Source: Candidatus Woesearchaeota archaeon CG10_big_fil_rev_8_21_14_0_10_37_12 (GTDB lineage: Archaea; Nanobdellota; Nanobdellia; Woesearchaeales; ARS49). From it: a stretch of DNA of 64,000 nt. Both the position numbers and the translations under genes were made by a program. The stretch covers positions 801 to 64,800 of the forward strand of contig PCYA01000017.1 of assembly GCA_002762795.1 (NCBI GenBank), read 5' to 3'. Of this stretch, positions 29,031-39,104 are shown piece by piece. The notes under the pieces were generated by a model. The model ran no database searches. It saw only the letters and a program-made list of their open reading frames with translations, and was not told the DNA's origin. Position 1 is the stretch's first letter. Each line of letters starts with the position of its first letter.

Positions 29031-32000
29031 AACAAACAAAATTATTGCTATTCATTTTTATTTTGCTAGCAACGCTTGTAAACGCGCAAGAAATAAACAT
29101 AACAAACGTGAATGTTAATCACACAAACCAAACAAGTGTTATCACATGGCAAACACAGCCAGCAGCAACAAGCCTTCTTCAATACGGCATTAATAATCTT
29201 GCACAAAACGCATCAGACAACAACGTAACAGTGCAACATAGAATAGAAATACCAACAACGCCAGGAGAAACATACCAGTACATCATTACAAGCTGTGCAA
29301 ACCAAAACTGCACAAGCATGCAACCAGCAACATTCACTGCAGGAAACTTCTTTGTCACAGCAGACATACCAACACATGTACGAACAGCAAATATTGATAT
29401 TACAGGAAGAACACAATCAGGAGCAACAATAAGATTAATACTTAACGGAAGAGACTTGCGAACATTAACCACGCAAACAAATACATTCTTGTTCCGAGAT
29501 ATTCAGCTCGACTCATCTAATAATACAATCATTATCCGCGCAACATCAGCAACAGGAGAAACAACACAAAAAAACTATCCTGTACGACTTGATAACTCTC
29601 CAGCAAGAGTATCAATAAACACAACTGCATTCACAACAGAAAAACCAGCACCATTGCGAATAGTAACTTCAGAGCCAGTACAATTGAACATCACAATACA
29701 ACAACTGGATGATGGAAATGAAACAAAAGAAGTGCAACATAATATCACTCTCGCAGGAACAATACAAATTCCAGTAGAATTATACGATGGAAGAAACAGG
29801 ATCAGCATTATTGCAACAGATTATGCAGGATTCACAACACACACAGAAACAGAAATTTATTATGATTTTGGACCGCCACAATTCTTAGAAACAAACCTTA
29901 ACCAATTAACGCCAAGCTACAGCAGATTAATACGCGTAAAAGGAACACTCAGCGAACCAGCAAGCGTGACAGTATTTCTCAACAATGAACCAGAAGAAAC
30001 AGTACAAACAGACAGCAACAATAAGTTCAACATACCAATAAACCTCAAACAATTCGCACAACTTGACAGAAGCCAAGCACCAAACAGAACAACATTGGAA
30101 ACAGGACTAGCATGGCGAAACAACATAAGATTAGAAGCAATAGATGCAGCAGGAAGAATAACAGCAATACAAGGAGATGTTGTTTACGCAAGCTGTTCAC
30201 AAGATGGACTCATAGATGTTGTTGTAACAGAGCCGCTGCCAGACATACTGAACACAAGATTATTAGTGGAAGGATTGCAGCAAGTCGGATTGTCGTTTAA
30301 CTACAGTTACAGAGGAGATCAGGAAGCAATCATCAGACCAGCAGACATAAGAATGCATAAACTCACACCAGGACAGGCATTCCAAAATGAATATGACAAC
30401 GCGCTCGCTACAGTTGCAAAACCAGGAGTAAAAGCAGCAAGCCAAACAGACGGCATAGGATATATCCAAGTAAACTTCAACTCCATAGAAGATCCATGGG
30501 CATTACCAGAAACAGGAAACGCGCCGCAAGCAACAGAACCTCCTTCAAATAATCCAACACTGTTTGACAAAGAAGATAGACTATCAGATCATAGAAAAGG
30601 AGACTGCTTGCTTCCGGGCTTTGGATGCATGCGAATTCTACTACAAATAGAAATACCATACCAAGAAAGCAGCGCAAGATATTACACAGGATCACAAAGA
30701 ACAACAACACAAACAGGGCAACAACCATTAGCACAAGATCTTGTTGACCTAAATGAACGCGTGCACAGAACATGCTTACCAATAGAAGTAGCAATAGACA
30801 GAAGAATACCTCCAGAAAAACTCGGAAGCAGTTTCCTGAACCACACATCAAGAGTTCTTGGCGAAATTGTAGAGAACATAGACAAAGTACTCAAACCAGT
30901 GGAAAATGTTGGACGATTCTTGTTCTACTCCTGTCTTGCAAGCACAGGATTAATGTACTTGCCAAGCCTAAACGAAAGATGGACGTGCAAATACAGCAAC
31001 GCTGTAAACTTATTTAACAGAGACCTAGACGAATCAGCAACATTCAATGAGGGAGTTGCTGCAATAGGAAAATGTGAAGATTTCTACACAGGAGAAGCAC
31101 TTGAAAACTGCAAATCGTGCAGCGAAGCAAAAACAACATTCAACAATTACAAATACTATTACCAGCAAATCTGCGACAGAGTAATGTGCGGAGCAGCACC
31201 AAGCTTACAAACTTACTTGCGAGTAAAAGGACGAACAACACTCGAAAAAATAGAAGGATCAGGATATGAAGCAGGAAGCGACTGTGCAATGTGGATGAAA
31301 GAAAAAGGCAAAATCGGCACAGGAAAAAGAGGAGCAGTTATTTTTTCGTATCAGGAAATAGAAGGAATATACAAAGACTGGTTGGAACACCAAAGTGATG
31401 ATGCAGATGACACAGGATTTTCAGGGGAAGTGAACTGTGCAGGGTTGCACCCAGCTGACGCAAGCTGTTGCGGATATGAATACATGCAGGAATGGAGCAG
31501 CGCTTGCGGAGTAAGCATAGGTGGTGGAGGTCTTGACTTATTCGATGAAATTAAAGAAAGCACATGCTTGAGTGCGCAAAACGCAAACAAAAATGAAATA
31601 CCGGGAGCAGGAGACACAACGATACAATGCAGCAGATTAACAAATGCTCTCAGTGGATTCTGTGATGCAAATGGAGGACCGCCACTAGAACCAATACGAG
31701 TTATGCACTTTGAAGGCGGAGACTCAGGAGTAACAGGCAAAGTACGCCAATTAGGATTAGCAACTAACAAGGAAAAATTCATGTACGTCCTAATAAAAGA
31801 AAATACAGGAGGGCAAACACAAGAAAAGCACTCAATAATGCTTGGATTTGTAGCTGAGAAAGTAAAATACGCACAAACACCGCAATCAGCAACATTTGCA
31901 GAAGAAGATATATTCAGCATTAATACGCAAACAGAAGCAAGAGTTATGCCTGGAGGGTATGAGCTACAACAACAATTCTTCAGAGAAGAACAAACAGCAG

Positions 32001-35000
32001 CTTATTATCAAGGACAGCTTGATGATAACTTTTACACACAATTCGGCAACTATCTTTGTAACCAAGCAGGATATTCTGGACTGCCTTGCCAAGATGGAGA
32101 CTTTACACGAGATGATGCCAAAGACGTTTACGCAAGAGTCATGCAATACATTGGAGATCCAGAACAAGAATACATTGTCAACCCAAGCTCTGGAGTAATA
32201 AATGCAGCACGATGCTTGTGCTTCCCAACACTCATTAGCTTCCTAAAAACTTGGAGGAATATACTGCAAGCAGTGCAAAACTGCGTTAACAGCATAATAT
32301 TAACAGGAGACGGAGATGCAGGAATCTGCCAAGAAGGAGTAACAATACCAATGTGCGATTTGTTATACGATGCAATTGCGTGTTTCACACAACGATTCGG
32401 AGCAGGAGGAGGACGAATAGGACTAGGAGGAGGAGATCCAATAGGAGCTCTCACCAGCGCAGGGGCACAAGTATCACGAACAGTAGAAAGCAGATACGGT
32501 ACGACAAACATGTATCAGGCAACATTCGGAGACAGAAAACTTGTGCATAGCATTTGTTTGTTTGCATTCACAGGAACATGGAACCTTGATCCTTCTGCAT
32601 TATTTGACCAAGCACTCGAAGACGTTCCAACAGAAAGTTATACATTGTTGTATCCTTGTCAGAGAAGGTACGTAAGCTATGATCCTACAACAACACCGGG
32701 AGGTTTAGTAACATGGGTGTACAATTTCGGTGCAGGAATAGCAGCAGGAGCAAACTTAGACGTAGACTTTAAACTCAAATGCAGTGCAGACAGAAGTTGT
32801 CTTCCATCAGAAGGTTTTGAAGGCGGCAAGTGTGATTGTGAAGAATCAGGACAAGAAAAATACTTGCCAATCAGACCACAAGGAACACCAACAAGAGTAG
32901 CAAAAGGAGAAATTTTCAATCAACCAGTGTACTTCACGTTAAAGGGTAATCCAAGAGATGGTTCAACAAGATATGATACGTTAATTATGACTCACAGATG
33001 GAGAGATCAAGGGAAAATAGCAGAAAAACAAACAGAATGCAAAATAGGCCAGGCAGGAGGACCGTTAAGCGTGCCTCCGCATTGTAAATTTGACGCGGCA
33101 ACATTAAGCTTTAGGTGCATGCTTGGAGAAGACGAAGGAGCAATCAGTTTATTGGGCTCAACAGTAGATGCACAGCACAACATACCAAACCCGGCATTTG
33201 CATTAGGAGAAGAACTCAACATTACGCTCGATGTAAGGCAAGCATACCCAAGACAAGACGCAATGTTCAACAAATATTTGGAGTACGCAGTCATGAATTC
33301 AGCAGGGCAAACAGTTGCAACAAATAAAGACGAAGCACTGCATCCCTTGACAACAAACGGCGATTACAAAATAAGAACAACAAACAGAGGAATATTCAGA
33401 ACACAATTAACTGTTACAGAAGACTGGTTCGGAACGCAGCAACAAACAGGCAGAAATTACCAGACAAGCACATGGAACAAAAATGAGCCTAGTGTGTTGT
33501 CGCCAAATGATGAAGGATTAATCGCAGATGTTTTGTTAACAGATGCTACAGGAAATACAAAAACAGAACAATCAGCGTTTGTTATCGAATTTTCCAATGA
33601 AAATGACCAAACAACATGGAAACTATTTGATGGAGGATCAAGAAGAAAATCAGCAGCAGGAATACAAAAAGGAAACCAATTAACAGGAGGAGTGTATAAC
33701 CCAACAACCACAATCATCTTCTATCAGGGAACAACAGCACAATCACAAATTGTCAGAGATCCAAATGCACCAGCAGGAGTACGAGTTGTACAAAGTGCAA
33801 ACGCAAATATCAGAATAACATTCAACAATATGCCTGTGCTTGCGCCAGGAGAACGAAAACAAATCTTAGTAGAATGGCAAAAACAACCAGAACTCGGAGC
33901 ATGCACTGACGAAACAAAAAGACAACAACCACAAAGATTCACCATAACATTCTCAGCATTTGATGCTGACGAAAACGGAAACCCAAGCAACCAAGTAAGC
34001 GTAGATCCAAACACAGGAACACCAGCACAATTGCAAGTACCATTTTTTGCAGTATGTTCAGAACCTTCAGCAATTGCACATTTGGAAACAGCAAACAATG
34101 AAACAATGATCAAACAATTCATGAGAGACATCCACGACGAATTTGGAAAAGCAAAAATAGAACAACAAGAATATCTTACAAGAATTGATGCATTTTTAGC
34201 ATCATCATACCCATTAGATACTCAGCAAGGAAAAGGAGATGTAGTATCAAGATTAGAGGCATTATTAACATATGAATCATTACATTACAACAAAATACAA
34301 GGATTTGTTAATAGACTAACAAGCTTGCCTACAGAGAACAGAATAGCAGGAGTTGATGAATTTGAAACACTTCTGAACAGATATAATGTTGAATTAGGAG
34401 TTGCAATTAGAGTAATCAGAGGAATGAAAGATGACATCAGACAAAGCAGTTTAAGACAAGAAATAGGACCAGCATTACTAGAGATTAAAACAAAACTTAC
34501 AGAATTAATGCAGACTAAAGACCAAGCAATACAGGCAACACAAGAAATAATCTTATTCAGACCAACAACTACAACACAACAATTAAGCCAAAGAGACCCA
34601 GCAACAACACCTTTGTTAGCAAATGATAGGAAAATATTGGAAGAAATAAAAAGATTGATTGAACGTCATCAACAAATAACTCCCATTTCCGCAAAAAATA
34701 GTCAAATAATAGAAATAAATAGGCTTTTCAACTATACTTTTACAGGTGTCACTGTTGAGTATGTTTATAACTTTATTAAAGCAATTAATATAACACAAAC
34801 CACACATTCTCAAACATATAGTGGGCACATAGGCAGACTTTCTTCAGAAGAACGAACAACCAGCATAGTTCAACTTGAAATAGAACTCATGCAATTCTTA
34901 ACACATACAAGATCAGTGCTGCCAAACCTTCAATTAACTGCGTATAAACAACAATTACAACAAATAAATTCAAGTTTCACACAAATCACACAAGCAGAAG

Positions 35001-35830
35001 ACGCAGTGCTAGCATACATTACTCAAAGATTAACAGCGCCAGAAGCGCAAGTAACAGCACAACCAACAATAGACGCGTCAACAAAAGAAGGACAATTGCA
35101 AGCACTCAAAACAGCAATAGAAACAGCAAGACGTGATCGAGAACCTTATTTGCTTACTTTCCAAGATTATGTAACTAATCCAGCAACAATGCCAAATGAT
35201 CATGTACAATTTAGAAATAGTTACGCGAGAGCGCAACAAGTAGAAATACAAAACATGCAAGCATTAGAAACAATACAAATAAATCAATTACCAGACATAA
35301 TTAAACAAGACGTAGAATTGCTTAAGTTCAATATGGGAACAATTACAACAGGAAGTATTGGCAGGTTTATACAGAACATACAAAGTGCTGATTTGCAACA
35401 ACTTAAGAGTCAAGTTCCTGAAATGCACCAGAAATATCAGCTAATAACTGGCCAAGAAGATAGCATTCTCAGACAAATAGACCAAGAACTCAGTTCTTCT
35501 GGATCGGGTGGAGCAGCAGGACCACCACAAGTTCAAACACCTCCGGCACAACCACAACAAACAACACTAGAAGATCAACAAAAACTTGGTGCACTCAAAA
35601 TCATCATTGAAGCAAACCAACAAATAAGAACTAATCACAAACAAAGAATAACAACATATCTCCCGGCACTTGCACCTGGAAATAAAGAAACAGTCAGAAA
35701 CCTAATACGAGCAATACAAGAAACAGAAAGCAGATACGCGAGAAATGTTGAATTAGCTCATATTGGGTTGTCCAGTCAAGAGTTAAGAGCAATACCACAA
35801 CTTGCAGCATTAAAATTCACAACAGACTAA
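29027..35830 (+). CDS. giant secreted surface protein (2267 aa): sequon-rich N-terminus, Cys-rich middle, Gln-rich coiled-coil C-terminal third
   Basis: Signal peptide MKQTKLLLFIFILLATLVNAQE, >60 NxS/T sequons, dense Cys clusters between aa 600-1300, Q-rich heptad-like region aa 1550-2260. Confidence 0.7.
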   Translation: MKQTKLLLFIFILLATLVNAQEINITNVNVNHTNQTSVITWQTQPAATSLLQYGINNLAQNASDNNVTVQHRIEIPTTPGETYQYIITSCANQNCTSMQPATFTAGNFFVTADIPTHVRTANIDITGRTQSGATIRLILNGRDLRTLTTQTNTFLFRDIQLDSSNNTIIIRATSATGETTQKNYPVRLDNSPARVSINTTAFTTEKPAPLRIVTSEPVQLNITIQQLDDGNETKEVQHNITLAGTIQIPVELYDGRNRISIIATDYAGFTTHTETEIYYDFGPPQFLETNLNQLTPSYSRLIRVKGTLSEPASVTVFLNNEPEETVQTDSNNKFNIPINLKQFAQLDRSQAPNRTTLETGLAWRNNIRLEAIDAAGRITAIQGDVVYASCSQDGLIDVVVTEPLPDILNTRLLVEGLQQVGLSFNYSYRGDQEAIIRPADIRMHKLTPGQAFQNEYDNALATVAKPGVKAASQTDGIGYIQVNFNSIEDPWALPETGNAPQATEPPSNNPTLFDKEDRLSDHRKGDCLLPGFGCMRILLQIEIPYQESSARYYTGSQRTTTQTGQQPLAQDLVDLNERVHRTCLPIEVAIDRRIPPEKLGSSFLNHTSRVLGEIVENIDKVLKPVENVGRFLFYSCLASTGLMYLPSLNERWTCKYSNAVNLFNRDLDESATFNEGVAAIGKCEDFYTGEALENCKSCSEAKTTFNNYKYYYQQICDRVMCGAAPSLQTYLRVKGRTTLEKIEGSGYEAGSDCAMWMKEKGKIGTGKRGAVIFSYQEIEGIYKDWLEHQSDDADDTGFSGEVNCAGLHPADASCCGYEYMQEWSSACGVSIGGGGLDLFDEIKESTCLSAQNANKNEIPGAGDTTIQCSRLTNALSGFCDANGGPPLEPIRVMHFEGGDSGVTGKVRQLGLATNKEKFMYVLIKENTGGQTQEKHSIMLGFVAEKVKYAQTPQSATFAEEDIFSINTQTEARVMPGGYELQQQFFREEQTAAYYQGQLDDNFYTQFGNYLCNQAGYSGLPCQDGDFTRDDAKDVYARVMQYIGDPEQEYIVNPSSGVINAARCLCFPTLISFLKTWRNILQAVQNCVNSIILTGDGDAGICQEGVTIPMCDLLYDAIACFTQRFGAGGGRIGLGGGDPIGALTSAGAQVSRTVESRYGTTNMYQATFGDRKLVHSICLFAFTGTWNLDPSALFDQALEDVPTESYTLLYPCQRRYVSYDPTTTPGGLVTWVYNFGAGIAAGANLDVDFKLKCSADRSCLPSEGFEGGKCDCEESGQEKYLPIRPQGTPTRVAKGEIFNQPVYFTLKGNPRDGSTRYDTLIMTHRWRDQGKIAEKQTECKIGQAGGPLSVPPHCKFDAATLSFRCMLGEDEGAISLLGSTVDAQHNIPNPAFALGEELNITLDVRQAYPRQDAMFNKYLEYAVMNSAGQTVATNKDEALHPLTTNGDYKIRTTNRGIFRTQLTVTEDWFGTQQQTGRNYQTSTWNKNEPSVLSPNDEGLIADVLLTDATGNTKTEQSAFVIEFSNENDQTTWKLFDGGSRRKSAAGIQKGNQLTGGVYNPTTTIIFYQGTTAQSQIVRDPNAPAGVRVVQSANANIRITFNNMPVLAPGERKQILVEWQKQPELGACTDETKRQQPQRFTITFSAFDADENGNPSNQVSVDPNTGTPAQLQVPFFAVCSEPSAIAHLETANNETMIKQFMRDIHDEFGKAKIEQQEYLTRIDAFLASSYPLDTQQGKGDVVSRLEALLTYESLHYNKIQGFVNRLTSLPTENRIAGVDEFETLLNRYNVELGVAIRVIRGMKDDIRQSSLRQEIGPALLEIKTKLTELMQTKDQAIQATQEIILFRPTTTTQQLSQRDPATTPLLANDRKILEEIKRLIERHQQITPISAKNSQIIEINRLFNYTFTGVTVEYVYNFIKAINITQTTHSQTYSGHIGRLSSEERTTSIVQLEIELMQFLTHTRSVLPNLQLTAYKQQLQQINSSFTQITQAEDAVLAYITQRLTAPEAQVTAQPTIDASTKEGQLQALKTAIETARRDREPYLLTFQDYVTNPATMPNDHVQFRNSYARAQQVEIQNMQALETIQINQLPDIIKQDVELLKFNMGTITTGSIGRFIQNIQSADLQQLKSQVPEMHQKYQLITGQEDSILRQIDQELSSSGSGGAAGPPQVQTPPAQPQQTTLEDQQKLGALKIIIEANQQIRTNHKQRITTYLPALAPGNKETVRNLIRAIQETESRYARNVELAHIGLSSQELRAIPQLAALKFTTD

Positions 35831-36073: not shown

Positions 36074-36526
36074 GTGGGACAATATGTGGTTGATAATGGG
36101 CGTAGAATCCAATACGCAAGTAGTGTTGATTACACATTTGATTTGCTCATTAAGAAAGACGATGTGACTTACTCGTTTAGTGTCTCATTTAATGCTAGGC
36201 AGGATTACACTCCGGACATAGCGAAAATTGAAGCAGGAGTTCTTGTTGGTCGAGTGCACTATGTTTCCGTTAGGGATGGTAAACTTGATGGTCTTTTCTC
36301 AACAAATGAGCCAATGGACGAGCTTGCTAATTTCTGGGATGGCTGGCCTGATACAACAAATTTCGATGAAGCCGTTTTAATTGATAAAAATTCACCAGAA
36401 AGTAAGAAAAATGAAGCAAGACAACAATATGCTCGATTCATGAATGAAATAGCAGAGTTAATACGAACAGGAGATTTGGTCGTAACTGAAACAGAGTCGC
36501 ATAAAATAGCTGCGCTTCCAGAATAA
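36074..36526 (+). CDS. hypothetical globular domain; probably the C-terminal extension of the giant protein, same frame
   Basis: GTG-initiated ORF; the 243 bp between the giant gene's TAA (35828-35830) and 36074 are open in the same frame, have no ATG/GTG/TTG, and encode Q-rich sequence like the giant protein's C-terminus. Confidence 0.4.
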   Translation: MGQYVVDNGRRIQYASSVDYTFDLLIKKDDVTYSFSVSFNARQDYTPDIAKIEAGVLVGRVHYVSVRDGKLDGLFSTNEPMDELANFWDGWPDTTNFDEAVLIDKNSPESKKNEARQQYARFMNEIAELIRTGDLVVTETESHKIAALPE

Positions 36527-36527
36527 A

Positions 36528-36576
36528 ATGATAACCAAAACCTCGCCAAACGCGTGGAATTTGTTTGTTAAACACA
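36528..36576 (+). repeat. direct repeat 1 (49 bp): duplicated 5' end of the membrane-protein gene flanking the TA cassette
   Basis: atgataaccaaaacctcgccaaacgcgtggaatttgtttgttaaacaca; encodes MITKTSPNAWNLFVKHK then terminates; nearly identical to 37639-37690. Confidence 0.6.
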
Positions 36577-36610
36577 AAAAAAGAAACCTTTAAATACTAT
36601 TGGTTCATAT

Positions 36611-37168
36611 TTGGCACATATGGTTCAAAAAAGAAACAATGTTGAGTTGGAAATTATAGATCTATTGTTTAAAAAAGAGAATCATGTCAGAGGAATATCT
36701 AAAAAACTAAATGAATCTCATTCTACAATATCGAGAAAATTAAACTATCTTAAAGATGAAAACGCGATTGATTATGTGCGGGAAGGAAAAAATAAGGTGT
36801 TTTTTCTGAAAAAAAACATCGTTGCACAAAGTTACATTCTAACCTCAGAAATACACAAACTAATAAAATTATTGAGAATATGCCCAGAATTAAGCGTTAT
36901 TTTTGAAGAAATGCTAAATAAAACAGATGAAAAATTAATCATTCTTTTCGGATCCTACGCAAAAGGGCTTGCTAAAAAAGACAGCGATATAGATGTTTAT
37001 ATTGAGACAAAAAACAAAACCGTTAAAAAAATTGTTGAGGATATAAATTCAAAAATCAGTGTTAAAATTGGTACATTCGATATTGACTCTCCGCTCGTTA
37101 AGGAAATAATAAAAGATCACATAATTATCAGAGGAGTTGAAAAATTTTATGAAAAACAATTTTCTTGA
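36611..37168 (+). CDS. winged-HTH fused to a minimal nucleotidyltransferase (MNT antitoxin-like)
   Basis: N-terminal wHTH (HVRGISKKLNESHSTISRKLNYL), then LFGSYAKGLAKKDSDIDVYIE = GSx9-10DxD Pol-beta NTase motif. Confidence 0.7.
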   Translation: MAHMVQKRNNVELEIIDLLFKKENHVRGISKKLNESHSTISRKLNYLKDENAIDYVREGKNKVFFLKKNIVAQSYILTSEIHKLIKLLRICPELSVIFEEMLNKTDEKLIILFGSYAKGLAKKDSDIDVYIETKNKTVKKIVEDINSKISVKIGTFDIDSPLVKEIIKDHIIIRGVEKFYEKQFS

Positions 37169-37628
37169 AAAACTAAAAAAAGAAGAAAAACTAGAACTGA
37201 TCGACCCTTCAGAGAACATCCATGATTCTTACTTGGAAAAATCCAATAACTGTATGAAAGCAGCAAAATTATTGTTGCAAAACAAATTATATGAGAACTC
37301 TATCGGGATGTCTTATTATGCGATGTATGACTTGCTTGTAGCATTATTATTCAGAGTAGGAATTAAATGCGAGAATCACTCAGCAGCAATTCTATTGCTC
37401 AAATCACTATTTGAAAATGATGAATTGTTTAAACTTATTTCGAATGCAAAAAAAGAAAGAATTGATAAACAATATTATATAACGACTGAAAAAGATACTG
37501 TGACTGAAGAAATAGCAAAAGAATTATTAACTCATGCGGAATACTTTGTTTTAAATCTGAAATCAATTATTGCCAGATTAAAAAACGAGGATGTTCCTAA
37601 AATCAGAGAAAAATTCAAAACATTATAA
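37137..37628 (+). CDS. HEPN-domain protein (toxin-like partner of the MNT)
   Basis: All-helical 163 aa; overlaps the MNT gene by 32 nt; HEPN-MNT gene order; Rx4-6H not clearly assignable. Confidence 0.55.
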   Translation: MKNFMKNNFLEKLKKEEKLELIDPSENIHDSYLEKSNNCMKAAKLLLQNKLYENSIGMSYYAMYDLLVALLFRVGIKCENHSAAILLLKSLFENDELFKLISNAKKERIDKQYYITTEKDTVTEEIAKELLTHAEYFVLNLKSIIARLKNEDVPKIREKFKTL

Positions 37629-37638
37629 CACTGGAAAA

Positions 37639-37690
37639 ATGATCCTTACAAAAACCTTACCAAACGCGTGGAATTTGTTTGTTAAACACA
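37639..37690 (+). repeat. direct repeat 2 (52 bp) matching 36528-36576
   Basis: atgatccttacaaaaaccttaccaaacgcgtggaatttgtttgttaaacaca. Confidence 0.6.
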
Positions 37691-38448
37691 AGCAATACCT
37701 TATATTATTTGTATTGTTAGACTTTGTCTTTTTGTTCTTTACAGCACAAGCCCATTTAACTTATTTTATTCCGACAGCAGATGCGGCAAACAGAGCAGGA
37801 GAAATTATCACGCAAGAACTGCAAACACTGCAAATGACAGATGCATACCAACTGGACGCTATTCTAATGCAAAATTCGCAGTTTAAACAAGCATATCATG
37901 ACTTATTGCAAGGCATAATTTACTTTTTTATCACCATGTTTATCATCTGGATAGTTATCAGGTCAGCAATCTGGCACATCAGCTACAAAATAATTCATAA
38001 AAAAACAAACTGGAAAACAAACGTGCTCAAATTTGCACTGTTTAGCCTTTTTTGGTTTGTTGTTGTTGCAATCGTGTTCGTTCTTTACAGTATATCAACA
38101 GGAAGCACAGCAACATTGTTACCAATAGTTGGAAATCCGTTAATTAGCATATTGATGATTGCTCTGTTTGTTCTAATTTATTATTTCAGTCAGATAAGTT
38201 TTGCTCTTGTGCCGGTACAACAAAGTTTTAATAAGACCTTTGCTTACGGAGTAAAATATGCCAAGAAATTTGTTCCAGTGGCACTTATAAATGCAATAAT
38301 TGTGTTCCTTGCACTCAGTCTGCCACTTAACTGGCTGCAAACATACCCAATAATATCACTTGCAATAATCATAATCATCAGCATACCAGCACTCGCATTT
38401 GCACGAGTGCATATAATCGGAGCAACAGAATGGGTAAAAAAATATTAA
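37639..38448 (+). CDS. polytopic membrane protein
   Basis: Start set at ATG 37639 (MILTKTLPNAWNLF), since this N-terminus is what is duplicated at 36528; ORF track extends to 37591; 6 TM helices. Confidence 0.5.
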   Translation: MILTKTLPNAWNLFVKHKQYLILFVLLDFVFLFFTAQAHLTYFIPTADAANRAGEIITQELQTLQMTDAYQLDAILMQNSQFKQAYHDLLQGIIYFFITMFIIWIVIRSAIWHISYKIIHKKTNWKTNVLKFALFSLFWFVVVAIVFVLYSISTGSTATLLPIVGNPLISILMIALFVLIYYFSQISFALVPVQQSFNKTFAYGVKYAKKFVPVALINAIIVFLALSLPLNWLQTYPIISLAIIIIISIPALAFARVHIIGATEWVKKY

Positions 38449-39104
38449 TAGCACTTGTTTGTCTGGTAATAATAGTTATTTTATTACTTCTTGCACTGCA
38501 ATATCCAGTTATACAACAAACAAAAACAGTGCAGACAACACCACAACAATATCCTGAACAACAGGAAATGGTTGAACAAGAACAACTATTAGAATTACCA
38601 ACTGAATTGGAGATACCAACGCCAAGAAGCCCTGCACTGGAAACAAGACCGGCAGCAACACCAAAAGCACCGGAGCCAGAACTATCACCGACAGGAGTTT
38701 CAATAGACAAAGTATTCCCACAAACAGTGCAGTTCTGGGTAAATACAATCAAAGTACCTGACACTACAGGTGCAACTGAGTACACGTACAATTACATTCC
38801 GGTACAAGCAAGAGAACTCAAAACATTTGCCGGAAGTTTCGGACCATATGCAGAAGACCCAATAGAACACATAATAATACTTCTTTGTGCAGAACTTACA
38901 AAAATAACAGCAGCACCATCATGTCAGCCAGTCAACATTGTATTCAGAGATGGTTATGTGAGCTTTGCAAAAGGCTACCAATATGACGAATATATTGGTG
39001 GGATGGCTGCAAAAGATTATACGGCTTACTATGAAATACACTTAAAAGAAACAGACACAATCATCAGAACAAGCAACAAAGCGTTTGTGAGAACAGTTAA
39101 TTAA
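38430..39104 (+). CDS. secreted protein with Pro/Glu/Gln-rich linker
   Basis: N-terminal TM/signal, PEQQEMVEQEQLLELPTELEIPTPRSP linker, ~120-aa C-terminal domain. Confidence 0.45.
   Translation: MGKKILIALVCLVIIVILLLLALQYPVIQQTKTVQTTPQQYPEQQEMVEQEQLLELPTELEIPTPRSPALETRPAATPKAPEPELSPTGVSIDKVFPQTVQFWVNTIKVPDTTGATEYTYNYIPVQARELKTFAGSFGPYAEDPIEHIIILLCAELTKITAAPSCQPVNIVFRDGYVSFAKGYQYDEYIGGMAAKDYTAYYEIHLKETDTIIRTSNKAFVRTVN

What the first reader, a model, noticed from the sequence alone, without database searches (positions are those of the whole stretch)
36528..37690. HEPN/MNT toxin-antitoxin cassette inserted with a ~50-bp duplication of the target gene's 5' end
The wHTH-MNT gene and the overlapping HEPN gene (32-nt overlap) are bracketed by two near-identical direct repeats: atgataaccaaaacctcgccaaacgcgtggaatttgtttgttaaacaca at 36528, and the same with three changes at 37639. 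The downstream copy is the true start of the 6-TM membrane protein (MILTKTLPNAWNLFVKHK...). The upstream copy encodes the same 17 residues and then terminates (MITKTSPNAWNLFVKHKKRNL*). This is the footprint of a mobile TA cassette that duplicated its target on insertion, or recombined in. It also shows that the membrane-protein gene originally followed directly after the giant-protein locus. The MNT is fused to a winged helix, an uncommon arrangement that would make the antitoxin its own repressor.
Basis: seen in the sequence. Interest (0 to 1): 0.55.

Follow-up and report, generated by a model that had tools for sequence, protein, structure and literature searches.

The report
Inserted toxin–antitoxin cassette, duplicated target
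A self-contained toxin–antitoxin gene pair was spliced between two tightly abutting genes of a tiny DPANN archaeon, copying the first ~55 bases of the downstream gene, and other toxin–antitoxin pairs landed at the same spot with the same kind of copy in three other lineages, which gives a rare footprint of how these gene pairs move without mobility genes.

Summary
Window 36525-36577 and 37636-37691 are a unique direct repeat (49/53 identical plus a 3-nt indel; a 32-nt identical core; none expected by chance). It brackets a 1.06-kb, low-GC (28% vs 37%) unit containing only an archaeal TATA box, a wHTH-MNT antitoxin gene (36620-37168) and an AF0298-type HEPN toxin gene (37149-37628). The downstream copy is the true start of a conserved ~6-TM protein.

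In 17 related Woesearchaeota/Nanoarchaeia lineages the giant-protein gene ends on or next to that start codon, usually as ATGA, so these are empty sites. In three further lineages another cassette sits at exactly this junction. Two carry different MNT/HEPN families and one carries VapBC. Each has a 33-60-nt duplication of that genome's own membrane-gene 5' end.

The cassette family is far better conserved (70-76% identity) than the flanking gene (55%), so it arrived horizontally. There is no integrase, attC or inverted repeat.

Best reading: "insertion with long target duplication", described for bacterial restriction-modification genes, here for archaeal TA cassettes at a recurrent hot spot. 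How the duplication was made is unresolved. The wHTH-MNT fusion is real but common in this clade. The MNT/HEPN overlap is 20 nt, not 32.

The parts
36074..36526 (+). Last ORF (150 aa) of the giant-protein locus. Its TAA stop lies 1 nt before the ATG of the upstream repeat copy. It marks the left, undisturbed side of the target junction.
   Evidence: ORF list. No homologue in any related locus. In relatives the gene at this position ends on or next to the membrane-gene ATG.
36525..36577 (+). Upstream copy of the duplicated target (a relic of the membrane-gene 5' end). Its first ~22 nt carry 4 substitutions and a 3-nt deletion. Its last 32 nt are identical to the downstream copy.
36528..36593 (+). 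21-codon relic ORF (MITKTSPNAWNLFVKHKKRNL*) opened by the upstream copy. Its stop lies inside the cassette's TATA box. It is probably a by-product with no function of its own.
   Evidence: Less consensus-like than the downstream copy (lacks L3; S instead of the conserved L7) in alignment A1.
36578..37635 (+). The inserted unit (1058 nt), running from promoter to stop codon. GC is 28.4% against 36.9% for the window.
   Evidence: Homology with cassette relatives begins ~10 nt 5' of the TATA box and ends ~6 nt after the HEPN stop. GC values.
36589..36596 (+). Archaeal TATA box TTTAAATA, ending 23 nt before the antitoxin ATG (geometry of a leaderless transcript).
   Evidence: Sequence. The same element sits at the same distance in cassette relatives and in the other cassettes at this junction. 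Its function is inferred.
36600..36623 (+). Non-coding segment TTGGTTCATATTTGGCACATATGG, conserved between TATA and start codon. Candidate operator for the wHTH of the antitoxin.
   Evidence: Nearly invariant among cassettes whose proteins are only 70-80% identical. Binding is not tested.
36620..37168 (+). Antitoxin gene: ArsR-type winged helix (aa ~10-70) fused to a minimal nucleotidyltransferase (GSYAKGLAKKDSDID motif).
   Evidence: Pfam HTH_5 23.4 bits (cut-off 22), NTP_transf_2 E 6e-10, NCBIfam MntA sub-threshold. PDB ArsR-family repressor 4ggg, E 0.008. Start codon fixed by homologues.
37149..37628 (+). Toxin gene: HEPN domain of the AF0298-like HEPN-T type. It overlaps the antitoxin gene by 20 nt.
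   Evidence: Pfam HEPN E 3e-12. PDB 9xbd/9xbc/2hsb (AF0298). The motif pattern (R kept in KKERIDKQYY, alternative H in CENH) matches the description of this family in PMC3710099.
37636..37691 (+). Downstream copy of the duplicated target, which is the functional 5' end of the membrane-protein gene.
   Evidence: Encodes the consensus-like N-terminus MILTKTLPNAW.
37639..38448 (+). Target gene: conserved 269-aa protein with about six hydrophobic segments and no Pfam family. It is followed, overlapping, by a conserved 224-aa gene (38430-39104).
   Evidence: 24 homologues; all invariant residues are present in the window protein. Hydropathy. Synteny with the 199-224-aa gene in all loci.

Best explanation
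What it is. The region holds a horizontally acquired, self-contained type VII-like toxin-antitoxin operon. It consists of its own TATA promoter, a wHTH-MNT antitoxin gene and an AF0298-type HEPN toxin gene. It was inserted at the boundary between the giant-protein locus and a conserved membrane-protein gene of a Woesearchaeota-like DPANN archaeon.

Why the duplication matters. In relatives the stop of the upstream gene and the start of the membrane gene overlap or abut, usually as ATGA. A plain insertion there would therefore destroy one of the two genes. The insertion that survived duplicated about 55-65 nt of the target, from a few bases before the ATG to codon 18/19. The upstream gene keeps its end and the membrane gene keeps an intact start. 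The upstream copy is now a decaying relic.

Recurrence. The junction is a recurrent landing site. At least three different cassette families (two MNT/HEPN and one VapBC) occupy it in four lineages, each flanked by a 33-60-nt copy of that genome's own membrane-gene 5' end.

Mechanism of insertion (inferred, not shown). I think the most likely route is recombinase-independent 'insertion with long target duplication'. That would be break repair or template switching using short microhomologies, followed by selection for events that keep both neighbours intact.

How the cassette works once in place (inferred from homology). HEPN would act as an RNase toxin. The MNT domain would neutralise it by nucleotidylation. 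The N-terminal winged helix would repress the cassette promoter through the conserved segment between TATA and ATG. The membrane gene is probably now co-transcribed with the cassette.
For: - Repeat: real, unique and limited to 53/56 nt.
- Content: the insert holds only MNT and HEPN genes and a promoter. Cassette homology with relatives starts ~10 nt before the TATA box and stops ~6 nt after the toxin stop.
- Foreign origin: GC 28.4% vs 35-39% in the flanks. The antitoxin has >1900 homologues, the best at 70-76% identity and full length, in unrelated contexts (defence islands, after OmdA, before MFS). The membrane protein's best homologue is 55% identical.
- Empty sites: in 17 lineages the giant gene ends on or within a few nt of the membrane-gene ATG (75 nt in L008).
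- Recurrence: L012 (MNT+HEPN-like; copies of 37 and 33 nt sharing a 24-nt perfect core), L014/L025 (MNT+HEPN; 47-48 nt) and L018/L028 (MazE-type VapB + PIN VapC; 40 nt) all sit at this junction with their own duplicated 5' end. Empty-site controls show no repeat.
- Phylogeny: the occupied lineages are separate branches among empty ones.
- Independent families: the window's and L014's antitoxins are 28% identical. Each belongs to its own widespread family, ~183 aa and ~204 aa, with 61-76%-identical relatives elsewhere.
- Site preference: all MNT hits in ~250 kb of membrane-gene-anchored loci lie at this junction.
- No mobility signals: no integrase or transposase within -9/+7 kb (precomputed Pfam). 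No terminal inverted repeats or attC-like structure. No tRNA at the site.
- Relic status: upstream copies are the degenerate ones in all four events, by frameshift, lost ATG or loss of conserved residues.
- Same footprint elsewhere: 22-92-nt unique direct repeats bracket other 1-2-gene insertions in these genomes, often at junctions where neighbours' signals overlap.
- Precedent: long target duplication without mobility genes is described for restriction-modification gene complexes (PMC2853133).
- Possible microhomology at the left junction: TTAAACA is shared by the target and by the 5' flank of cassette relatives.
Against: - No empty site at the DNA level exists for this species; the nearest relative's membrane protein is 55% identical. 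The pre-insertion sequence is therefore inferred from gene order only.
- The duplications start within 0-13 nt of the ATG in every event but extend 33-60 nt into the gene. A purely random staggered break plus selection does not obviously predict that asymmetry.
- Differences between the two copies cluster in the 5' part (12 of 14 changes across the four events by my count, binomial p about 0.007). In the window they look allele-like: an in-frame codon indel and two synonymous changes. This fits att-type or homologous recombination between two alleles as well as, or better than, uniform decay.
- Most cassettes of the same families at other sites have no flanking repeat.
- In L046 the repeats are tRNA-like 3' ends, the classic integrase target.
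- Toxicity, neutralisation and autorepression are untested.
Confidence: 0.62

Rival explanations
1. The repeats are attL and attR from att-type (Campbell) integration. A circular DNA carrying the cassette plus a copy of the membrane-gene 5' end recombined with the chromosomal 5' end. This could have used a tyrosine integrase acting in trans, or host homologous recombination over ~30-55 nt. Alternatively, the cassette is all that remains of a larger integrated element, retained because it is addictive.
For: - There is an identical 3' core with diverged 5' arms in all four events.
- In the window the arm differences are in-frame and partly synonymous, as between two functional alleles. The shorter MITKT... 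form exists in real homologues.
- The same site is used repeatedly.
- Repeat lengths of 33-56 nt are typical of archaeal att sites (general knowledge).
- In L046 two TA cassettes sit between copies of a tRNA-like 3' end that also share 18 nt of element-side arm.
- An integrase gene lies ~4 kb from TA cassettes in L060.
Against: - No integrase lies in the insert or within -9/+7 kb.
- The insert is flush from promoter to stop. In L012 and L018 the toxin stop lies inside the duplicated ATGA, which is hard to obtain by random decay of a larger element in every case.
- The repeat sequence is each genome's own 5' end and differs strongly between lineages, so no single att specificity explains the events.
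- Other repeat-bracketed insertions in these genomes use unrelated targets.
- Neither the repeat core nor the cassette family was found in IMG/VR viral contigs.
Confidence: 0.25
2. There was one ancient insertion of an MNT/HEPN cassette at this junction in the common ancestor. It was inherited vertically, its two repeat copies were kept alike by gene conversion, and it was lost precisely by recombination between the repeats in most lineages. The cassette was later swapped for VapBC in one lineage.
For: - Three of the four occupied lineages carry an MNT plus HEPN pair, each with an N-terminal extension on the antitoxin.
- Recombination between direct repeats would restore a scar-free empty site.
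- Occupied lineages sit on deep, long branches.
Against: - The window's antitoxin is 28% identical to L014's and only locally similar to L012's. It is 70-76% identical to cassettes at unrelated sites. L014's antitoxin belongs to another family with 61-75%-identical relatives elsewhere. So the cassettes at this site are not each other's closest relatives.
- 30-55-nt copies staying nearly identical while the gene's 5' end diverged beyond recognition between lineages would need sustained conversion.
- In the 99.3%-identical pair L014/L025 the upstream copy already differs at 2 positions, so it decays quickly.
- At least five or six independent precise losses would be required.
Confidence: 0.07
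3. It is an integron-type gene cassette captured by an integron integrase at a secondary site.
For: - TA cassettes are typical integron cargo, and integrons have been reported in archaea (bioRxiv 10.1101/2022.02.06.479319, listed).
- The repeat ends with GTTAAAC, which fits the GTTRRRY core.
- A TCGCTGTTAWA motif followed by GC-rich palindromic sequence lies next to some cassette relatives.
Against: - Only 10 nt separate the toxin stop from the membrane-gene ATG, which leaves no room for an attC. No inverted repeat lies at either end.
- No integrase is nearby.
- Integron recombination does not create 50-nt target duplications.
Confidence: 0.02
4. The repeat is a chance match, an assembly artefact or part of a larger segmental duplication.
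For: The sequence is a metagenome-assembled, AT-rich genome.
Against: - Zero matches are expected by chance.
- The identical structure is present in an independent JGI contig, and the antitoxin protein is on record from four contigs.
- Similarity is limited to 53/56 nt.
- The same architecture recurs in unrelated assemblies.
Confidence: 0.01

Closest known systems
'Insertion with long target duplication' of restriction-modification gene complexes (Nobusato et al. 2000, from memory; Furuta, Abe & Kobayashi 2010, PMC2853133, read)
   Same: - The cargo is an addiction-type gene complex of a few genes.
- The insert carries no transposase or integrase and has no terminal inverted repeats.
- It is flanked by a long direct duplication of a target that is single-copy in empty-site genomes. 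Duplications there exceed 30 bp and vary in length (45-420 bp); here they are 33-60 nt.
- The inserted DNA has a deviant GC content.
- The mechanism is unknown in both cases.
   Different: - The cargo here is a toxin-antitoxin operon, not an R-M system, so the DNA-breaking activity proposed for R-M cannot be invoked.
- The host is a DPANN archaeon; no archaeal case survived their screen.
- The same gene junction was hit independently by at least three cassette families.
- The duplicated piece is the 5' end of a coding gene whose start overlaps the upstream stop.
HepT/MntA (HEPN/MNT) type VII toxin-antitoxin systems, e.g. Shewanella SO_3166/SO_3165 (PMC4621449, PMC7641770; abstracts seen)
   Same: - It is a two-gene operon with the MNT gene first, overlapping the HEPN gene.
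- The nucleotidyltransferase motif is intact.
- A conserved tyrosine follows the conserved arginine in the HEPN C-terminal part, which is the predicted nucleotidylation site.
   Different: - The HEPN is of the AF0298-like HEPN-T type, with the canonical H of Rx4-6H replaced and an alternative upstream H.
- The antitoxin carries an N-terminal ArsR-type winged helix of ~90 aa.
- NCBIfam MntA scores 33.5 bits against a cut-off of 60.
- No biochemistry has been done.
Integrative elements that duplicate the end of their target gene (tRNA-targeting archaeal integrative plasmids and viruses; e14 in icd) and integrase-less remnants such as CIMEs (general knowledge)
   Same: - Direct repeats are made of the target gene's end.
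- An intact gene is restored on one side.
- An identical core is combined with diverged arms.
- A site is used repeatedly.
   Different: - No integrase is present.
- The 'element' is only a promoter-to-stop operon.
- The target is a protein-coding 5' end that differs in sequence between lineages.
Integron gene cassettes, including archaeal integrons (bioRxiv 10.1101/2022.02.06.479319)
   Same: - Small units of one or two genes, often TA pairs, are inserted at a recurrent site next to resident genes.
   Different: - There is no attC and no IntI.
- The cassette carries its own promoter.
- The insertion is flanked by a 50-nt target duplication.

Membership tests
HEPN/MNT (type VII-like) toxin-antitoxin module | Minimal nucleotidyltransferase with an hG[GS]x9-13Dh[DE] motif | tested here: met
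   Pfam NTP_transf_2 E 6e-10 and Polbeta E 3e-8. LFGSYAKGLAKKDSDIDVYI is present and invariant in 18 homologues.
HEPN/MNT (type VII-like) toxin-antitoxin module | HEPN domain with Rx4-6H or the family-specific alternative active site | tested here: met
   Pfam HEPN E 3e-12. Best PDB relatives include AF0298 (2hsb). The R is kept (KKERIDKQYY), the canonical H is absent and an upstream conserved H is present (CENH). This is the pattern PMC3710099 describes for AF0298-like HEPN-T. Catalysis is not shown.
HEPN/MNT (type VII-like) toxin-antitoxin module | Two small adjacent co-oriented genes, MNT upstream, overlapping or coupled | tested here: met
   36620-37168 and 37149-37628 overlap by 20 nt. 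The same overlap is seen in relatives L030, L046 and L052.
HEPN/MNT (type VII-like) toxin-antitoxin module | Toxin inhibits growth and the antitoxin neutralises it by (oligo)AMPylation | not testable with these tools
   Needs expression and biochemical assays.
NCBIfam MntA_antitoxin (NF047752) equivalog | Score at or above the curated cut-off (60 bits) | tested here: not met
   33.5 bits over aa 105-159 only. It is an MNT-fold antitoxin but not a member of that equivalog.
Insertion with long target duplication (criteria of Furuta et al. 2010) | Direct repeat longer than 30 bp flanking the inserted genes | tested here: met
   53/56 nt in the window. 37/33, 47-48 and 40/39 nt in L012, L014/L025 and L018.
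Insertion with long target duplication (criteria of Furuta et al. 2010) | Empty-site genome with the repeat sequence present once and the flanks contiguous | tested here: inconclusive
   Met at the level of gene order in 17 lineages. No genome close enough for nucleotide alignment exists in the collections searched (best 55% protein identity).
Insertion with long target duplication (criteria of Furuta et al. 2010) | No mobility genes (integrase, transposase) in or next to the insert; insert under 20 kb | tested here: met
   The 1058-nt insert holds only MNT and HEPN. No integrase or transposase Pfam hit appears among genes from -9 to +7 kb.
Site-specific integrative element (tyrosine integrase, attL/attR) | Integrase encoded by the element | tested here: not met
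   A trans-acting integrase elsewhere in the genome was not tested, because only 64 kb is available.
Site-specific integrative element (tyrosine integrase, attL/attR) | Identical core sequence at both ends | tested here: met
   A 32-nt identical core with diverged 5' arm.
Integron gene cassette | attC (imperfect inverted repeat, 55-140 nt) at the 3' end of the cassette | tested here: not met
   Only 10 nt lie between the HEPN stop and the membrane-gene ATG. No inverted repeat lies at the ends.
DNA transposon / IS-derived element | Terminal inverted repeats and a short (<15 bp) fixed-length target duplication | tested here: not met
   No terminal inverted repeats. Duplications are 33-60 nt and variable in length.
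Autoregulated TA operon with a DNA-binding antitoxin | DNA-binding domain in the antitoxin and an operator at the promoter | tested here: inconclusive
   The wHTH is present: HTH_5 23.4 bits vs cut-off 22, and ArsR-type PDB hit 4ggg. A 24-nt non-coding segment between TATA and ATG is conserved across cassettes. Binding is not tested.

The most novel reading that the evidence does not exclude
Woesearchaeota-type DPANN archaea may have a general pathway that inserts bare promoter-to-stop gene cassettes, above all toxin-antitoxin pairs, at gene boundaries. The pathway would use no cassette-encoded recombinase and would create 20-90-nt target duplications. Duplicating the zone where neighbouring genes' signals overlap would be what lets extremely compact genomes accept new genes. 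On this reading the giant-gene/membrane-gene junction acts as a natural capture site, analogous in outcome to an integron attI but built on a different mechanism.
Probability: 0.2. Interest if true: 0.8.

Novelty: new variant of a known kind. Interest (0 to 1): 0.58.

Why it matters
Toxin-antitoxin modules are among the most horizontally mobile genes in prokaryotes. Yet most carry no mobility genes, and how they enter chromosomes is a long-standing open question.

This case supplies four independent insertions of at least three cassette families at one defined junction, plus 17 empty sites, so the junctions themselves can be compared. The comparison shows three things:
- The mobile unit is exactly promoter-to-stop.
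- Insertion comes with a long, variable duplication of the target.
- The duplication is what preserves two genes whose stop and start overlap.

The case also extends the 'long target duplication' phenomenon from bacterial restriction-modification genes to archaeal TA cassettes. This hints at a common mechanism for addiction modules that does not depend on the cargo. Finally, it suggests how very compact DPANN genomes can take up genes without breaking overlapping neighbours.

Tried and rejected
- **Larger segmental duplication.** Rejected, because similarity stops at the repeat ends.
- **The 150-aa ORF as a displaced C-terminus of the giant protein.** No similarity to giant proteins of relatives. 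The L001 giant aligns only to window 29336-34582.
- **Flanking repeats as a general property of the 183-aa cassette family.** No target duplication in L030, L044, L046, L048 or L052, and the repeat screen found none around the cassettes in L055-L058 or L060. The 47-nt repeat around the L040 cassette belongs to a GC-rich multi-copy family (GAGCGTCAGCGAGAGCG...) and is probably REP-like, not a target duplication.
- **tRNA target at the window site or in other occupied loci.** None found.
- **Virus or plasmid origin.** The repeat core, the L046 att-like core and the cassette family (single sequence and alignment) gave nothing in IMG/VR viral contigs.
- **L027 as a fifth occupied site.** Its upstream '90-aa ORF' is just the end of a giant gene running in from the contig edge, so the site is empty.
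- **A native promoter at the membrane-gene ATG defining the duplication boundary.** A TATA-like ATAAAATA exists upstream of the window's upstream copy, but nothing comparable is present in L012, L014 or L018, so the idea is not general.
- **A full chain of ATGA couplings in L018.** Corrected on inspection: the relic ORF and vapB are separated by 1 nt (TGA A ATG) and do not overlap.
- **Literature searches for TA cassettes with target-5' duplications.** No direct precedent was found. Pandey & Gerdes 2005 is not held in the library.
Full report
**1. The observation**

Window 36525-36577 and 37636-37691 form a direct repeat of 53 and 56 nt. Of the aligned bases, 49 of 53 are identical and there is one 3-nt indel. 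All five differences lie in the first ~22 nt, and the last 32 nt are identical.

The 32-mer occurs exactly twice in the window even with three mismatches allowed, against none expected in 100 shuffles. The pair is the strongest short-range direct repeat in the 64 kb.

An independently deposited JGI contig is 100% identical over 17 kb, including this structure.

**2. What lies between the repeats**

The 1058 nt between the repeats (36578-37635) contain the following features:
- A TATA box, TTTAAATA (36589-36596).
- A 24-nt non-coding segment that is nearly invariant among related cassettes (36600-36623).
- A 182-aa gene starting at ATG 36620. It encodes an ArsR-type winged helix fused to a minimal nucleotidyltransferase.
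- A 159-aa HEPN gene starting at ATG 37149.

Homologues fix both start codons, so the genes overlap by 20 nt, not 32.

The HEPN is of the AF0298-like HEPN-T type. The arginine of Rx4-6H is kept (KKERIDKQYY), the histidine is replaced, and an upstream conserved histidine (CENH) is present. This is the pattern that PMC3710099 describes for that family.

The nucleotidyltransferase motif GSYAKGLAKKDSDID is intact and invariant in homologues.

Function as a toxin-antitoxin pair, neutralisation by nucleotidylation and autorepression through the winged helix are all inferred from homology and from the conserved promoter-proximal segment. None of them is shown.

**3. The target gene and its neighbourhood**

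The downstream repeat copy is the start of a 269-aa protein with about six hydrophobic segments and no Pfam family. It has 23 homologues of 259-281 aa whose N-terminus, MxLxxTLPKAWKAF..NKKYL, is conserved. The window protein has every invariant residue.

The organisms are Woesearchaeota/Nanoarchaeia-type DPANN archaea.

In 17 related lineages a giant gene of 1300-2400 codons ends on or within a few bases of the membrane-gene ATG, mostly as an ATGA overlap (75 nt away in L008). The membrane gene is followed by a conserved 199-224-aa gene. These are empty sites at the level of gene order.

The giant proteins' C-terminal parts are unrelated between lineages. In the pair L027/L017, nucleotide homology begins at the membrane-gene start. 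The junction is therefore a boundary between a hypervariable region and a conserved one.

In the window, the gene that abuts the upstream repeat copy is a lineage-specific 150-aa ORF, not the 2267-aa ORF itself.

**4. The site is used repeatedly**

Three other lineages carry a two-gene cassette at exactly this junction:

| Locus | Cassette | Duplicated membrane-gene 5' end |
|---|---|---|
| L012 | MNT (176 aa) + HEPN-like (143 aa) | 37 and 33 nt, 24-nt perfect core |
| L014/L025 | MNT (206/207 aa) + HEPN (160 aa) | 47-48 nt |
| L018/L028 | MazE-type VapB (80 aa) + PIN VapC (132 aa) | 40 and 39 nt |

In each case the first 33-60 nt of that genome's own membrane gene are repeated directly after the giant gene's stop. 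Empty-site controls show nothing comparable.

Each cassette brings its own TATA box, placed 10-36 nt after the upstream copy. In three of the four lineages this is 23-25 nt before the antitoxin ATG. In L014/L025 the called start is about 47 nt downstream.

In L012 and L018 the toxin's stop codon lies inside the duplicated ATGA.

The occupied lineages are separate branches among empty ones on the membrane-protein tree.

**5. The cassettes arrived independently and horizontally**

- The window's antitoxin has more than 1900 homologues. The best 120 clusters are ~183 aa, full length and 68-76% identical. They sit in unrelated contexts.
- The flanking membrane protein's best relative is only 55% identical.
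- L014's antitoxin is 28% identical to the window's. It belongs to a second widespread ~204-aa family with 61-75%-identical relatives elsewhere.
- The window cassette has 28.4% GC against 35-39% for its neighbours.
- In ~250 kb of loci anchored on the membrane gene, every MNT hit lies at this junction.

So there are at least three cassette families, four lineages and one junction. The winged-helix-MNT fusion is confirmed but is common in this clade rather than unusual.

**6. How the insertion worked**

Shown:
- The mobile unit runs exactly from promoter to stop codon.
- It carries no integrase, transposase, terminal inverted repeats or attC.
- Insertion is accompanied by a long, variable duplication of host-specific target sequence.

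Inferred: the upstream stop and the downstream start overlap in the empty state, so only an insertion that duplicates the overlap can keep both genes. This explains why a duplication is always seen here.

The closest described phenomenon is 'insertion with long target duplication' of restriction-modification gene complexes. Those are addiction-type cargo with no mobility genes and 45-420-bp duplications. The mechanism is unknown, and no archaeal case was found in that screen (PMC2853133).

- A 22-nt repeat flanks a nucleotidyltransferase pair inserted between a ThiI-like gene and cysS. The repeat contains the TATA-like sequence upstream of cysS.
- A 34-nt repeat of a stop/start coupling region flanks a gene inserted after an R-M gene.
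- A 24-nt repeat flanks a 402-aa gene.
- A 92-nt perfect repeat is present in L014/L025.
- 28-47-nt copies of a tRNA-like 3' end separate two TA cassettes in L046.

This suggests a general, cargo-independent process in these genomes.

**7. What remains unresolved**

Two molecular routes fit the data.

(a) De novo duplication by staggered breakage or template switching, with microhomology at the junctions. In support:
- The targets are diverse and host-specific.
- The repeat lengths vary.
- TTAAACA is shared by the window's target and by the 5' flank of cassette relatives.

(b) Campbell-type recombination of a circular cassette that already carried a copy of the target, by an integrase acting in trans or by short-homology recombination. 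In support:
- There is an identical core with diverged 5' arms in all four events. By my count 12 of 14 changes fall in the 5' half, binomial p about 0.007.
- The differences in the window look allele-like: an in-frame codon indel and two synonymous changes.
- The duplications always begin within 0-13 nt of the ATG.
- The L046 case uses a tRNA-like end.

I rate (a), combined with selection, somewhat more likely than (b). The sequence of a true empty-site allele would decide between them (see next steps).

A single ancient insertion with many precise losses is unlikely, for two reasons. The cassettes at this site are not each other's closest relatives. Also, the upstream copy already differs between the 99.3%-identical genomes L014 and L025.

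**8. Verdict**

The TA module itself is an ordinary member of a very large DPANN cassette family.

The interesting part is the insertion footprint and its recurrence. It is a new, archaeal, TA-cargo variant of insertion with long target duplication, at a hot spot with many empty-site comparators. This makes the mechanism of TA mobility more directly testable.

Noticed in passing
L046:520-2720 (minus strand): A tRNA gene with an 89-nt intron lies at 2713-2558 (Rfam 42 bits). It is followed by a tRNA-like 3' end, CCCCAGTTCGAATCTGGGCGGGCCCA (Rfam tRNA only 15.7 bits). Next comes a MazE/PIN_3 cassette, a 47-nt copy of that 3' end (1606-1652), an RHH/PIN cassette, and a 42-nt copy (523-564). The PIN_3 stop codon lies inside the repeat. 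The two distal copies also share 18 nt upstream of the tRNA-like core. The arrangement looks like tandem TA-only insertions at a tRNA end.
   Followed up: partly
L056:17670-18742 (also L057): A 22-nt perfect direct repeat brackets a nucleotidyltransferase (193 aa) + 113-aa gene pair inserted between a ThiI-like gene and cysS. The repeat holds the ThiI-like gene's last codons and a TTTAAATA 26 nt upstream of the cysS ATG. The upstream gene's last two codons and stop are supplied by the insert.
   Followed up: partly
L061:3036-4270: A 34-nt direct repeat (94% identical) of a stop/start coupling region brackets a 401-aa gene inserted directly after an MmeI-like type IIG restriction-modification gene.
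   Followed up: no
L014:3117-3810 (L025:7406-8099): A 92-nt perfect direct repeat flanks 510 nt holding a 50-aa ORF and a low-molecular-weight phosphatase-like gene. On the minus strand the repeat encodes a hydrophobic peptide, so a gene fragment is duplicated here too.
   Followed up: no
L056:11588-12966 (also L057, L058): A 24-nt perfect direct repeat brackets a single 402-aa gene with no Pfam hit. The first copy lies in the 3' end of the preceding 172-aa gene.
   Followed up: no
L030:430, L040:4763 and 6222, L052:1987 and 2033: A recurrent motif, TCGCTGTTAWA, followed by GC-rich palindromic sequence, lies next to TA cassettes in different genomes. It begins right after the HEPN stop in several cassette relatives. 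It could be REP-like, IS200/IS605-related (a Y1 transposase gene lies in L030) or attC-like.
   Followed up: partly
L014 vs L025 (L014:1-3300): The two genomes are 99.3% identical overall. However, 42 of 43 differences in the first 3.3 kb fall in the giant gene's 3' end, the relic repeat copy and the TA cassette, and only one falls in the membrane gene and its neighbour. This suggests a recombination boundary at the cassette/membrane-gene junction.
   Followed up: partly
window:35831-36526: The 2267-aa ORF ends at 35830. It is followed by 244 nt without an ORF and then by a 150-aa ORF with no homologue in any related locus. Giant-protein C-terminal parts are unrelated between lineages.
   Followed up: partly
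window:63756-63853 (minus strand): ARAGORN reports a 98-nt tRNA-like gene with an undetermined four-base anticodon (ctta). It may be an intron-containing or otherwise atypical DPANN tRNA.
   Followed up: no
L044:8580-10555: A large gene (over 1369 aa) with Cas12-type REC1 and RuvC_1 domains lies about 3 kb from a decayed copy of the cassette, in which HEPN is reduced to 48 codons.
   Followed up: no
window:42377-44383: A 668-aa protein with weak nucleotidyltransferase (NTP_transf_2/Polbeta) hits lies about 5 kb downstream of the cassette (precomputed Pfam for L003:14739-16745).
   Followed up: no
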